Source: a virus. Taken from it: a stretch of DNA of 64,000 bases. Below are positions 15,729 through 63,226 of this stretch, one piece after another. Within the stretch, counting starts at the first letter, position 1. Each line of letters opens with the position of its first letter. The stretch spans positions 34,874-98,873 of the IMG/VR virus record IMGVR_UViG_3300027763_000040, one strand, 5' to 3'. A program made the position numbers and the translations under genes. The notes beneath the pieces are model-generated. The model worked only from the letters and a program-made list of their open reading frames with translations, was not told the origin of the DNA and did no database searches.

Positions 15729-15763
15729 ATTTTACATAAAAAAAAGGAGGGTGTCAACCCCCC
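15729..15763 (-). terminator. Rho-independent terminator overlapping a sigma70 promoter
   Basis: GGGGGG-TTGACA-CCCTCC followed by T8. The loop TTGACA (15752-15757) lies 17 nt from TAAAAT (15729-15734). Confidence 0.8.
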
Positions 15764-15769
15764 AGTATA

Positions 15770-15883
15770 TTATCGCATTGCCATTACAAGTTTTGCTTGA
15801 TGCTTGCGTTGTTCTTTTTCCTTTTGCTGCTTGATTAAAACAAGTTGCCAGTTATTTTTATTTTTCACATTTGCTTGTGACAT
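15770..15883 (-). CDS. 37-aa basic peptide downstream of the riboswitch
   Basis: MSQANVKNKNNWQLVLIKQQKEKEQRKHQAKLVMAMR. Strong SD AAGGAG, followed by a terminator. Confidence 0.75.
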   Translation of the reverse strand: MSQANVKNKNNWQLVLIKQQKEKEQRKHQAKLVMAMR

Positions 15884-15916
15884 TAGGTTTTCTCCTTAGT
15901 GGTTTAGGTTAAAGAG

Positions 15917-16129
15917 CGTTCCTTCAGTCGGCGGTTGCGTCTATTTTACACTCTTTGGGAGTAATTTTTTTGATTTCCCAAATTAAATCGTTGCGAGTTT
16001 GTGGAGGCATATTTGCCTTCATAACTCTTCCAATGATTAACTTTGCTTGTAGACAACTAAGTAAGAGTGCTTCCATAGATGAACGATCCGTTCCGCGTCG
16101 GCTTACTTCCGACCCTTTCGGGTTGAACG
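15917..16129 (-). ncRNA. Tandem glutamine-riboswitch-like aptamers (glnA / Downstream-peptide class)
   Basis: Aptamer 1 (16129-16089): CGTTCA-ACCC GAAA GGGT-CGGAAGTAAG...GGAACG. Aptamer 2: CGTTCA TCTAT (16085-16075) ... ATAGA CGCAACCGCCGACTGAAGGAACG (15944-15917). Confidence 0.75.
15924..16076 (-). CDS. 50-aa peptide nested inside aptamer 2
   Basis: MEALLLSCLQAKLIIGRVMKANMPPQTRNDLIWEIKKITPKECKIDATAD. The longer track ORF starts at the -35 element, so that start is unlikely. Confidence 0.65.
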   Translation of the reverse strand: MEALLLSCLQAKLIIGRVMKANMPPQTRNDLIWEIKKITPKECKIDATAD

Positions 16130-16136
16130 TAGAGGT

Positions 16137-16166
16137 ATTATACCCCCATTGCGGGTATTTAGTCAA
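16137..16166 (-). promoter_or_regulatory. Sigma70 promoter with an embedded late-promoter motif, driving the riboswitch transcript
   Basis: TTGACT-N18-TATAAT, with CTAAATA at 16156-16162. Predicted +1 near 16130 coincides with the aptamer start. Confidence 0.7.
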
Positions 16167-16173
16167 ATAATTC

Positions 16174-16189
16174 TGTAAAATGTGATACA
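16174..16189. promoter_or_regulatory. NtcA-binding box
   Basis: TGTA-AAATGTGA-TACA matches tGTA-N8-TACa. Intergenic and upstream of the riboswitch promoter. Confidence 0.75.
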
Positions 16190-61843: not shown

Positions 61844-63078
61844 CAAGGTCCAAGGGGAAGTTGTGAGCATTCTTGAAATCCCACTGTCGCCAGGGGCAAG
61901 GACTATATCATCACCATTTCTGGTGTCGGACGCTAATGGTGTATTACATCTCACGCTTGAGAAACCACCTAGTCTCTGAACCTTCCCCAGAAGCGTCTGG
62001 GGCTTGGCTGCTGATTGTCTACGAGAGAGTTCCAGCAATTCATCCGATTTAAAGAGCGCCATGCTTATACAAAACGCTCGTGCATTACTTCCATCCCAAG
62101 TCCACCACGATTAAGAATATCAGCCCAAGTAGGAATTACTTTGTTCTGACTATCAGTAATAGACTGGTTGAAATTAAATCCGTTGAGATTGAAGGCCATC
62201 GTGGAAACACCAAGGGCGGCGAACCAGATGCCTACAACAGGCCAGGCAGCAAGGAAGAAGTGCAACGAACGGGAGTTATTAAAGGACGCATATTGAAAGA
62301 TAAGACGACCAAAATACCCGTGAGCTGCAACTATGTTATAAGTTTCTTCCTCTTGTCCGAACTTATAACCGTAGTTCTGACTTTCGGTTTCAGTAGTTTC
62401 ACGTACCAACGATGAGGTTACAAGAGAACCGTGCATCGCAGAGAACAGTGAACCACCAAAGACACCAGCAACACCCAACATATGGAAGGGGTGCATAAGG
62501 ATGTTATGCTCTGCCTGGAAGACAAGCATATAGTTAAAAGTACCAGAAATGCCCAAAGGCATAGCATCAGAGAAAGAACCTTGTCCGAAAGGATACACAA
62601 GGAATACAGCAGATGCAGCAGCAACAGGTGCTGAGTAAGCAACCATAATCCAAGGACGCATACCTAGACGGTAAGAAAGTTCCCATTCACGTCCCATATA
62701 GGAGTAGATACCAATCAGGAAGTGAAAGACAACAAGTTGGAAAGGTCCACCATTGTACAACCATTCATCTAAGGAAGCAGCTTCCCAGATAGGATAGAAG
62801 TGAAGTCCAATAGCATTAGAAGAAGGAACAACAGCACCAGAGATGATGTTGTTACCGTACATTAATGAACCAGAGACAGGTTCACGAATGCCGTCGATGT
62901 CCACAGGAGGAGCACCGACAAATGCGATGATGAAGCAAATCGTTGCGGCAAGCAACGTTGGAATCATAATGGTTCCAAAATGTCCGACGTATAAACGATT
63001 ATTTGTACTTGTTACCCAACTAAGGTAACGTTCCCAGAGATTGTCGCCAGATTGGCGTGTAGCAATTGTAGCAGTCAT
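61794..63078 (-). CDS. psbA: Photosystem II D1 protein, two exons (63078-62074 and 61871-61794), 360 aa after splicing
   Basis: Exon 1 ends ...EVMHER. Exon 2 reads [25 protein letters not shown]. Confidence 0.98.
61872..62073 (-). ncRNA. Group I intron (202 nt, no ORF) in psbA
   Basis: 5' exon ends in U and the intron ends in G. P AATTGCTGGAA, Q AATCAGCAG, R GTTCAGAGACTA, S GATATAGTCC. P3 TCGGATG/CGTCCGA. IGS GGCGCTC pairs with exon GAGCGT. AGCAT pairs with exon-2 ATGCT (P10). Confidence 0.95.
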
Positions 63079-63081
63079 TTG

Positions 63082-63195
63082 TTAAAAGGGTAAGTATGAG
63101 TCCAAGGGGAATTGAACAGTTACAGTATTCCTACACCACCCTCCAGTGTAGGTATGAGAGACGTATTTATCGTGCAAAGTCTCGGTAAGCACCTT
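63082..63195 (-). ncRNA. Structured psbA 5' leader (PhotoRC-II-like motif)
   Basis: GAGAC...GTCTC pairing, CCTACAC-TGGAGGGTG-GTGTAGG hairpin whose loop can pair with downstream TTCCCC, and ACTTACCC before the ATG. Confidence 0.65.
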
Positions 63196-63226
63196 AGCAA
63201 TGTTAGGATTTCCTGACTTGCTGATG

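What the first reader, a model, noticed from the sequence alone, without database searches (positions are those of the whole stretch)
15917..16085. A 50-codon ORF is nested inside the second riboswitch aptamer
The 5' half (CGTTCA-TCTAT) and 3' half (ATAGA-CGCAACCGCCGACTGAAGGAACG) are 130 nt apart. The closing stem TCTAT/ATAGA covers the AT of the start codon, and the stop TGA lies in the conserved GACTGAAGGAACG strand. Ligand-stabilised folding and translation of the nested ORF should be mutually exclusive. This could act as a toggle between the nested two-Cys peptide and the downstream peptide.
Basis: partly seen in the sequence, partly recalled or inferred. Interest (0 to 1): 0.72.

Follow-up and report, generated by a model that had tools for sequence, protein, structure and literature searches.

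The report
Gene nested inside cyanophage glutamine riboswitch
In this T4-like cyanophage, one hairpin of a two-part glutamine-sensing RNA switch closes around a real 50-codon gene, so sensing nitrogen status and translating that gene must compete on one RNA; hundreds of related phages share the layout and I found no paper describing it.

Summary
On the minus strand, CGUUCA-UCUAU (16085-16075) and AUAGA-CGCAACCGCCGACUGAAGGAACG (15944-15917) lie 130 nt apart. They flank a 50-codon ORF (16076-15924) whose AU lies in the closing stem and whose UGA lies in the conserved 3' strand.

The feature is not chance. In 247 unique cassettes from viral contigs, 200 of 202 split second units and 85 of 85 split first units hold an intact ORF. 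The start codon always sits 3-7 nt after CGUUCA. The long-range stem covaries, and median dN/dS is about 0.4. The last six codons have frozen synonymous sites because they are aptamer sequence. An insert-free relative (S-CREM1) has the same unit with a short loop.

The nested proteins form one cyanophage family (T4-like GC 430, weak phrog_504 hit), predicted as two helices with two invariant Cys; their function is unknown.

The two "aptamers" are not independent. A covarying helix joins unit 1 to unit 2, and its 3' strand is codons 47-49 of the ORF.

Mutual exclusion of folding and translation follows from the geometry. The toggle direction is untested.

The same scan has flagged this layout on many other phage genomes. 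I found no publication describing it.

The parts
16137..16166 (-). Sigma-70-like promoter: -35 TTGACT (16166-16161), 18-nt spacer, -10 TATAAT (16142-16137). The inferred transcript start is near 16130, at the first base of the sensor.
   Evidence: 11 of 12 consensus matches. The start site is inferred from spacing and not measured. The TTG of the 80-aa ORF listed is this -35 box, so that longer frame lies outside the transcript.
16085..16131 (-). Unit 1 of the sensor. P1 5' strand CGUUC 16129-16125; hairpin P1a-1 ACCC-GAAA-GGGU 16123-16112; CGGAAGUAA 16111-16103; inter-unit helix 5' strand GCCGACG 16102-16096; P1 3' strand GAACG 16093-16089; linker GAU.
   Evidence: RF01739 33.0 bits (cut-off 35), E 2.7e-5, aligned with the GAAG segment deleted. 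P1a-1 covaries in relatives.
16075..16085 (-). 5' half of unit 2: P1 5' strand CGUUC (16085-16081), A, and P1a-2 5' strand UCUAU (16079-16075). This stretch is also positions -9..+2 of the nested gene's initiation region.
   Evidence: CGUUCA is followed by ATG after 3-5 nt in all 202 split second units.
15924..16076 (-). Nested gene: 50 codons plus UGA. The predicted protein has two helices (residues 8-20 and 25-38), Cys8 and Cys43, and a low-confidence tail (41-50) that is aptamer-encoded.
   Evidence: Median dN/dS is 0.42. An HMM search finds 307 clusters at 50% identity. AF2 mean pLDDT is 82.
15940..15955 (-). 3' strands of the closing helix: AAGAGUGU (15955-15948) pairs with GCACUCUU (16070-16063), and AUAGA (15944-15940) pairs with UCUAU.
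   Evidence: duplex -14.0 kcal/mol against a mean of -5.2 and a best of -8.6 for interior windows. Covariation. DSL-LC03 has CAUUC/GAAUG in place of CACUC/GAGUG.
15917..15939 (-). 3' half of unit 2: CGCAAC (15939-15934); inter-unit helix 3' strand CGCCGAC (15933-15927) plus U15926; UGA stop 15926-15924; GAAG; P1 3' strand GAACG 15921-15917.
   Evidence: The pair G16096:C15933 covaries across cassettes (G:C 114, U:A 111, A:U 17 of 247). Third-codon positions are frozen.
15892..15916 (-). Putative expression platform: CUCUUUAA (15916-15909) can pair with UUAAGGAG, which contains the SD AAGGAG (15897-15892).
   Evidence: This hairpin is in the MFE fold. The sequence is conserved in the freshwater relatives. 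Its function is inferred.
15770..15883 (-). Downstream 37-codon ORF. Its counterparts in relatives are DUF4278-like (YRG..Y) peptides. The window's copy lacks the YRG..Y block.
   Evidence: DSL-LC03 peptide: PF14105 E 8e-5, 23.3 bits, below the cut-off of 25.3. The window peptide has no hit.
15738..15763 (-). Intrinsic-terminator-like hairpin (GGGGGG..CCCUCC) followed by a U run, which ends the roughly 390-nt unit.

Best explanation
Window 16166-15738 (minus strand) is a small phage transcription unit whose leader is the two-unit, glnA-type glutamine sensor common in T4-like cyanophages.

Shown:
- Hairpin P1a of the second unit is closed by a covarying long-range helix around a genuine protein-coding gene. 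Its product has 50 aa, two helices and two Cys, and belongs to a cyanophage-specific family.
- The gene's initiation region is built from the P1 and P1a 5' strands.
- Its last six codons and its stop are the P1a 3' strand, the junction, and the 3' strand of a helix that ties unit 2 to unit 1.

Inferred:
- A ribosome that initiates on, or finishes, the nested gene cannot coexist with the folded sensor on the same RNA molecule, and the reverse also holds.
- The RNA therefore partitions between a 'translating' state and a 'folded, glutamine-stabilised' state.

Most likely logic, at lower confidence:
- High glutamine favours the fold. This shuts the nested gene and, as in known type-1 switches for DUF4278 genes, opens the ribosome-binding site of the downstream peptide gene.
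- Low glutamine leaves the start codon free, and ribosome traffic keeps the sensor unfolded.
For: Anatomy.

Homology of the split unit to an insert-free unit: S-CREM1.

Prevalence:
- 247 unique cassettes fall into four classes: compact-split 134, split-split 68, compact-compact 28 and split-compact 17.
- 200 of 202 and 85 of 85 split units hold intact ORFs.
- Marine isolates P-SSM2, P-SSM7, S-SSM7, P-RSM6 and Syn19 have the same layout, annotated only as hypothetical proteins 'T4-like GC 430/936'.
- tblastn finds the family in 235 phage records.

Coding:
- Median dN/dS is 0.42 and 0.36 for the two ORF sets.
- The other frames carry stops.
- Indels are in frame.
- Profile-profile comparison of first-unit and second-unit ORFs gives 95% probability, E 3.4e-8.

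Closing helix:
- In-register pairing is 0.91 against 0.34-0.50 when slid, with U-A/C-G/A-U/G-C exchanges.
- Both P1a hairpins are 100% paired, with changes on both sides in 8 of 9 pairs, in compact cassettes.
- The 5' end pairs best with the 3' end in 104 of 116 and 43 of 51 elements.

RNA constraint on the ORF tail:
- Third-position entropy is 0-0.5 bits against 1.58 in the interior.
- Residue -3 is K, N or T according to the inter-unit base pair.

Inter-unit helix.

Ligand logic by analogy: glutamine binding enhances translation of DUF4278 genes in Synechocystis and Prochlorococcus leaders (PMC6212724).
Against: - There are no expression, ribosome or ligand-binding data for any phage cassette.
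- Unit 1 scores just under the Rfam cut-off, and the split unit is not detected at all.
- P1a formation in known glutamine aptamers is not itself reported to depend on ligand. The fold may therefore close the start codon regardless of glutamine.
- The start region is transcribed about 130 nt before its partner, so co-transcriptional translation may always win the first rounds.
- The UGA lies 39 nt upstream of the next AUG and 7-12 nt upstream of the anti-SD. This fits positive coupling rather than a toggle.
- The window's own downstream peptide has lost the YRG..Y motif.
Confidence: 0.6

Rival explanations
1. Relay or coupling rather than toggle. Glutamine binding to unit 1 frees the adjacent CGUUC strand, and with it the nested start region, from a GAACG-GAU-CGUUC hairpin. 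The nested gene is then translated. Ribosomes terminating at UGA melt the anti-SD hairpin just downstream and switch the downstream gene on as well. All genes are ON together at high glutamine.
For: - The MFE fold of the leader predicts the GAACG/CGUUC mini-hairpin between the units.
- The linker is 3-4 nt in the cassettes examined.
- The stop codon is 39 nt from the next AUG, and the anti-SD CUCUUU starts 7 nt after it.
- Known glutamine switches are ON switches (PMC6212724).
Against: - In the 85 cassettes where the ORF sits in unit 1, no upstream unit exists to gate it, yet the start codon is still in the stem.
- The strongly conserved closing helix around the start codon is not needed in this model.
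Confidence: 0.2
2. Passive nesting. The P1a loop is simply a permissive site in a compact genome. The gene is expressed from the shared transcript with no evolved interplay, and the sensor works only on RNAs that happen to be ribosome-free.
For: - P1a loops vary freely in length and sequence.
- Insert-free, single-insert and double-insert cassettes all exist.
- The same ORF family occurs in either hairpin (L202 against L134).
- Some family members have tails that are not aptamer-encoded.
Against: - The start codon stays 3-7 nt after CGUUCA in all 287 split units with an ATG near CGUUCA, despite large N-terminal indels.
- The ORFs run into or up to the 3' stem strand, with at most about 12 untranslated nt before it.
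- The closing helix is extended in subfamily-specific ways: 9 bp for CFID, 7 bp for CPID, and 5+8 bp for CKID (read from the alignment).
Confidence: 0.15
3. The RNA is no longer a glutamine sensor. It is a conserved structured operator, or stabiliser, derived from a riboswitch. It closes the nested gene's start codon constitutively or in response to something else.
For: - Scores are below the Rfam cut-off.
- Unit 2 has CGCAA in place of CGGAAGUA, and unit 1 lacks GAAG.
- No biochemical test of the phage variant was found in the papers searched.
Against: - Taken together, the two units supply every conserved segment of the RF01739 consensus in order: CGUUCA, P1a, CGGAAGUA, a covarying helix where P2 sits, and GAAGGAACG.
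- The S-CREM1 authors report 44.0 bits for the 99-nt whole (PMC9964418).
- The cassette sits in front of DUF4278-like genes, as cellular glutamine switches do.
Confidence: 0.1
4. The open frame is a by-product of RNA structure and is not translated.
For: No direct evidence of translation. There is no clear Shine-Dalgarno sequence upstream; only GGA at -14..-12.
Against: - 285 of 287 split units keep the frame open for at least 45 codons.
- dN/dS is about 0.4, and third positions are the most variable in the interior.
- The two Cys are invariant and the two-helix fold is confident.
- The interior shows no conserved pairing.
Confidence: 0.03

Closest known systems
Type 1 glutamine riboswitch (glnA RNA, Rfam RF01739), for example the Synechocystis gifB/IF17 leader (PMC6212724)
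   Same: CGUUCA...GAACG P1, a variable P1a hairpin, the CGGAAGUA and GAAGGAACG strands, a position in front of a DUF4278-type small gene, and a known presence in T4-like cyanophages (PMC9964418).
   Different: - The conserved segments are split between two units joined by a covarying helix.
- One hairpin loop is a 143-nt insert that is entirely coding.
- The start codon and the stop codon are aptamer nucleotides.
- Scores fall below the Rfam cut-off.
Type 2 glutamine riboswitch (Downstream-peptide motif, RF01704)
   Same: ACGUUCA, a hairpin, CGCA, and a strand that pairs with a 3' tail after GGAACG to form a pseudoknot (alignment seen). Unit 1 plus the distal CGCCGAC strand has this layout.
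   Different: The pseudoknot partner lies beyond a second unit and beyond a whole gene. RF01704 scores only 13.9 bits here.
Tandem ('pseudo-cooperative') glutamine riboswitches: 157 doublets counted by Sherlock et al. 2022 (PMC9481103)
   Same: Two glutamine-type units lie head to tail in front of one gene.
   Different: That survey required that no ORF intervene and treated long gaps as separating the RNAs, so split units would be excluded by design. It describes the units as independent, whereas here they share a helix.
Salmonella mgtA Mg2+-sensing leader with the mgtL ORF (my own knowledge, not checked here)
   Same: An ORF lies inside a ligand-sensing leader, and its translation decides which RNA fold forms.
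   Different: mgtL is a 17-codon sensor peptide with no known function of its own and lies in the expression platform. Here a conserved 50-70-aa protein family sits inside the aptamer hairpin itself.
Long-distance RNA interactions that close start sites in MS2/Qbeta, and homing-endonuclease ORFs in group I intron loops (my own knowledge)
   Same: In the first case a distant strand pairs with a start region, and ribosome passage opens it. In the second a peripheral loop of a functional RNA houses a gene.
   Different: Neither involves a metabolite-binding aptamer. The intron ORFs do not share their start and stop codons with catalytic-core helices.

Membership tests
Glutamine riboswitch type 1 (RF01739) | P1 helix CGUUC/GAACG enclosing the motif | tested here: inconclusive
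   Both strands are present for both units. All four strands are invariant in 28 compact cassettes, so covariation cannot confirm pairing. It also cannot tell a:a'/b:b' from a:b'/a':b.
Glutamine riboswitch type 1 (RF01739) | Hairpin P1a directly after CGUUCA, supported by covariation | tested here: met
   Unit 2 split form: pairing 0.91 in register against 0.34-0.50 when slid, with several pair types at positions 3-5. Compact forms are 100% paired, with changes on both sides in 8 of 9 pairs.
Glutamine riboswitch type 1 (RF01739) | Conserved junction strands CGGAAGUA (5') and GAAGGAACG (3') in one unit, which form the E-loop | tested here: not met
   Unit 1 has CGGAAGUAA but GCGGAACG, so GAAG is deleted in the cmscan alignment. 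Unit 2 has UGAAGGAACG but CGCAAC. The pair of strands is complete only across the two units.
Glutamine riboswitch type 1 (RF01739) | P2 helix between the two junction strands | tested here: met
   It is met only as an inter-unit helix, AGCCGACG (16103-16096) with CGCCGACU (15933-15926). The terminal pair covaries as G:C 114, U:A 111 and A:U 17 of 247. The short form is GUCG/CGAC.
Glutamine riboswitch type 1 (RF01739) | Rfam gathering score (35 bits) | tested here: not met
   Unit 1 scores 33.0 bits, and the split unit is not reported at E<=10. Relatives score 35.6 (DSL-LC02 unit 1) and 33.5 (S-CREM1 unit 2). The S-CREM1 paper gives 44.0 bits for the whole 99 nt with an earlier Rfam release.
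Glutamine riboswitch type 1 (RF01739) | Selective binding of L-glutamine and ligand-dependent translation | not testable with these tools
   No biochemical or reporter data for phage cassettes were found.
Glutamine riboswitch type 1 (RF01739) | Association with DUF4278 or nitrogen-metabolism genes | tested here: inconclusive
   Downstream peptides of DSL-LC02 and DSL-LC03 hit PF14105 at E 7e-4 and 8e-5, below the cut-off. The window's peptide and S-CREM1's have no hit. All share the start MS(Q/K) and the same position.
Cyanophage nested small-protein family (T4-like GC 430 / GC 936; weak phrog_504) | 45-70 aa, hydrophobic N-terminus, two invariant Cys about 35-40 residues apart, two helices | tested here: met
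   Alignments A2 and A3 show Cys8 and Cys43 invariant. hhalign between the two sets gives 95%. The HMM search finds 307 clusters. AF2 predicts helices 8-20 and 25-38. The phrog_504 hit is only E 0.003.

The most novel reading that the evidence does not exclude
The cassette is a translation-gated riboswitch. It is a single canonical glutamine aptamer assembled from two half-units, and its folding competes with ribosome traffic on a gene housed in its own hairpin. This would give a bistable choice between two small phage proteins according to host glutamine. The nested proteins' C-terminal residues are dictated by aptamer base pairs.
Probability: 0.3. Interest if true: 0.9.

Novelty: new variant of a known kind. 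Interest (0 to 1): 0.8.

Why it matters
- **Riboswitch surveys.** Riboswitches are treated as non-coding leaders, and surveys discard aptamers separated by ORFs. Here the aptamer and a gene share nucleotides, including the start and stop codons, in hundreds of abundant marine and freshwater cyanophages.
- **Mechanism.** If folding and translation compete as the geometry implies, this is a natural device that couples a metabolite signal to a choice between proteins. It would also be a new example of selection acting on the same bases at both RNA and protein level.
- **Annotation.** A widespread 'hypothetical' cyanophage gene cluster (T4-like GC 430/936) becomes part of a nitrogen-sensing cassette.
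- **Architecture.** 'Tandem' phage glutamine riboswitches appear to be one interlocked structure rather than two independent units.

Tried and rejected
- **Family and fold searches on the nested peptide.** Pfam gave no hit. PHROGs gave only a weak phrog_504 hit. The ESM Atlas returned eukaryotic DUF4371 clusters at 0.92, which I treat as chance. Foldseek against the PDB gave nothing below E 3.6. The protein's function stays unknown.
- **The 80-aa ORF from TTG 16166.** Rejected, because that TTG is the -35 box and the extension is not conserved.
- **Word-based protein search.** It found only close metagenomic relatives.
- **Scan of cellular genomes with the 16-mer.** Only two were real cassettes, both on short low-GC contigs that look like misbinned phage. 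This says nothing about whether cyanobacteria have the layout.
- **The look-up of encoding contigs.** The genomic context of family members with non-aptamer tails is therefore unknown, and tblastn of one of them found no phage isolate.
- **Column-wise pair counting on the 96-sequence alignment A4.** Not used, because MAFFT put the marine and freshwater stems out of register. Anchor-based counting and the compact-cassette alignment A5 were used instead.
- **Ames & Breaker 2011.** Not held in the library.

Full report
**What is there**

The window is part of a 98.9-kb IMG/VR virus record. It carries cyanomyovirus hallmarks: PhotoRC-II RNA and a group I intron. Its nearest isolates are freshwater and estuarine Kyanoviridae. 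The finding lies on the minus strand.

A strong sigma-70-like promoter (TTGACT, 18 nt, TATAAT; 16166-16137) and a terminator-like hairpin (15763-15746, followed by a U run) bracket a unit of about 390 nt. The unit starts with a glutamine-riboswitch match at 16131-16085 (RF01739, 33.0 bits against a cut-off of 35, E 2.7e-5).

Directly after that match come:
- CGUUCA-UCUAU (16085-16075);
- an ORF from AUG 16076 to UGA 15926-15924;
- AUAGA-CGCAACCGCCGACUGAAGGAACG (15944-15917);
- a hairpin that can sequester the SD AAGGAG;
- a 37-codon ORF (15883-15770).

**It is a split aptamer unit, not a look-alike**

Phage S-CREM1 has the same cassette with a short loop (UUCGCUAU-UCGAAU-AUAGCGAA) where the window has the ORF. 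Outside the hairpin the two units differ by one base. The S-CREM1 unit scores 33.5 bits against RF01739 and is annotated as a glnA riboswitch by its authors. DSL-LC02, DSL-LC03 and S-SRM01 share the window's insert.

**It is widespread and the frame is conserved**

Three exact-pattern scans of viral contigs were used: one anchored on the 5' half and two on 3'-half variants. They gave 247 unique cassettes:

| First unit | Second unit | Cassettes |
|---|---|---|
| compact | split | 134 |
| split | split | 68 |
| compact | compact | 28 |
| split | compact | 17 |

- Of the 202 split second units, 200 carry an open frame of at least 45 codons.
- All 85 split first units carry one too (61-69 codons in the first parse).
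- The ATG is always 3-5 nt (second unit) or 4-7 nt (first unit) after CGUUCA.
- In the first parse, second-unit ORFs ended at the UGA of GACUGAAGG in 126 of 133 cases. First-unit ORFs often end at the UAA inside CGCAAGUAAGCC.
- Marine isolates P-SSM2, P-SSM7, S-SSM7, P-RSM6 and Syn19 have the same layout. Their ORFs are annotated only as hypothetical proteins of 'T4-like GC 430' or 'GC 936'.
- tblastn finds the family in 235 phage records.

**The ORF is a gene**

- Median pairwise dN/dS is 0.42 for second-unit ORFs and 0.36 for first-unit ORFs, and third positions are the most variable.
- The other frames average 1.6-6.4 stops.
- Length differences are in frame.
- The two Cys are invariant.
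- A profile search of 1.84 billion representatives finds 307 clusters, almost all 44-85 aa.
- First-unit and second-unit ORFs are homologous (hhalign 95%, E 3.4e-8). One subfamily occurs in either hairpin with the tail changed to suit (..GRK* against ..DAKAD*).
- AlphaFold2 with the alignment predicts two helices (8-20, 25-38; mean pLDDT 82) and a poorly defined tail.
- No known family or fold matched, so the protein's role is unknown.

**RNA and protein share bases**

- *Closing stem.* The stem covaries over 130-190 nt. In-register pairing is 0.91 against 0.34-0.50 when slid. Position 3 is U-A or C-G, position 4 is A-U, C-G, U-G or U-A, and position 5 is U-A or A-U.
- *Start region.* The first 22 nt after CGUUCA pair better with the last 22 nt before CGCAA than with any interior window in 104 of 116 and 43 of 51 elements. 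For the window the value is -14.0 against a best interior value of -8.6 kcal/mol.
- *Stem extensions.* Subfamilies extend the stem in their own ways. This can be read from alignment A4.
- *ORF tail.* The last six codons (I-D-A-K/T/N-A-D) have third-position entropy of 0-0.5 bits against 1.58 in the interior.

**The two units are interlocked**

Unit 1 has CGGAAGUA but lacks GAAG. Unit 2 has GAAGGAACG but lacks GGAAGUA.

The strand after GUAA in unit 1 (GCCGAC-x, or GUCG in the short form) is complementary to the strand before UGAAGG in unit 2 (y-GCCGAC, or CGAC). The x:y pair is G:C in 114, U:A in 111 and A:U in 17 of 247 cassettes. GCCAAC goes with GUUGAC. The tool's own count on 28 compact cassettes agrees. 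In the window the pair is G16096:C15933.

This helix sits exactly where P2 sits in the RF01739 consensus. Two layouts fit the data. In one, two cores are tied by a pseudoknot. In the other, a single canonical aptamer (outer P1 formed from the first CGUUC and the last GAACG) holds the rest in its P2 loop. The invariant P1 strands cannot decide between these.

The 3' strand of this helix is codons 47-49 of the nested gene. Residue -3 of the protein (K, N or T) simply follows the x:y pair. An earlier agent in this scan used the phrase 'interlocked sensor cores'. I tested that idea here.

**How it probably works**

*Shown:* the overlap of the initiation and termination regions with P1, P1a and the inter-unit helix.

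*Inferred from the size of the ribosome's mRNA channel (established knowledge):* an initiating or terminating ribosome and the folded sensor exclude each other on one RNA molecule.

*By analogy:* glutamine switches raise translation of DUF4278 genes (PMC6212724). The fold should therefore favour the downstream gene and close the nested one.

*Untested:*
- whether the phage variant binds glutamine;
- whether the stem closes independently of ligand;
- whether terminating ribosomes instead open the downstream SD. The anti-SD begins 7 nt after UGA, so this coupling is possible.

I therefore rate the architecture as near certain, the competition between folding and translation as likely, and the toggle direction as open.

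**Novelty**

Glutamine riboswitches in T4-like cyanophages, and their tandem arrangement, are known (PMC2864571, PMC9481103, PMC9964418). None of the papers I could search mentions an ORF inside an aptamer hairpin or a helix joining the units. The tandem survey excluded arrangements with intervening ORFs or long gaps by design. Ames & Breaker 2011 could not be read. The same scan has flagged this layout on many other phage genomes.

Noticed in passing
window 16096-16103 with 15926-15933 (minus strand): A covarying helix joins the two 'tandem' glutamine units. This also holds in cassettes without any ORF, so phage 'tandem' glutamine riboswitches may be one interlocked structure, or a single aptamer with an elaborated P2.
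   Followed up: yes
window 15770-15883 (minus strand): The downstream peptide aligns with the DUF4278-like peptides of relatives at both ends. It lacks the YRG..Y block through an internal deletion relative to S-CREM1, and it has no Pfam hit.
   Followed up: partly
window 16175-16188: GTA-N8-TAC (an NtcA-box-like palindrome) is centred about 51 nt upstream of the inferred transcript start, one helical turn further than the usual -41.5. It was noted by another first-stage reading. I did not test it.
   Followed up: no
proteins P0123, P0127, P0130, P0147, P0163, P0167 and others: About a third of the listed family representatives end in tails that are not DAxxD, DAND or GRK. They may be free-standing copies or copies nested differently.
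   Followed up: partly
L202:1690-1887 compared with L134:3074-3265: The same ORF subfamily sits in the second unit in one contig and in the first unit in another, and only the C-terminal residues are changed to match the host hairpin. This suggests that loops are swapped by recombination between the repeated CGUUCAUCC and GGACGCAA flanks.
   Followed up: partly
window 61880-62123 and 63117-63205 (minus strand): A group I intron (72.7 bits) and a PhotoRC-II RNA (64.8 bits), probably in and upstream of a photosystem gene.
   Followed up: no
L143:3142-3552: One cassette has a separate stem-loop of about 40 nt inserted between the two units, so the linker between units is not always 3-4 nt.
   Followed up: no
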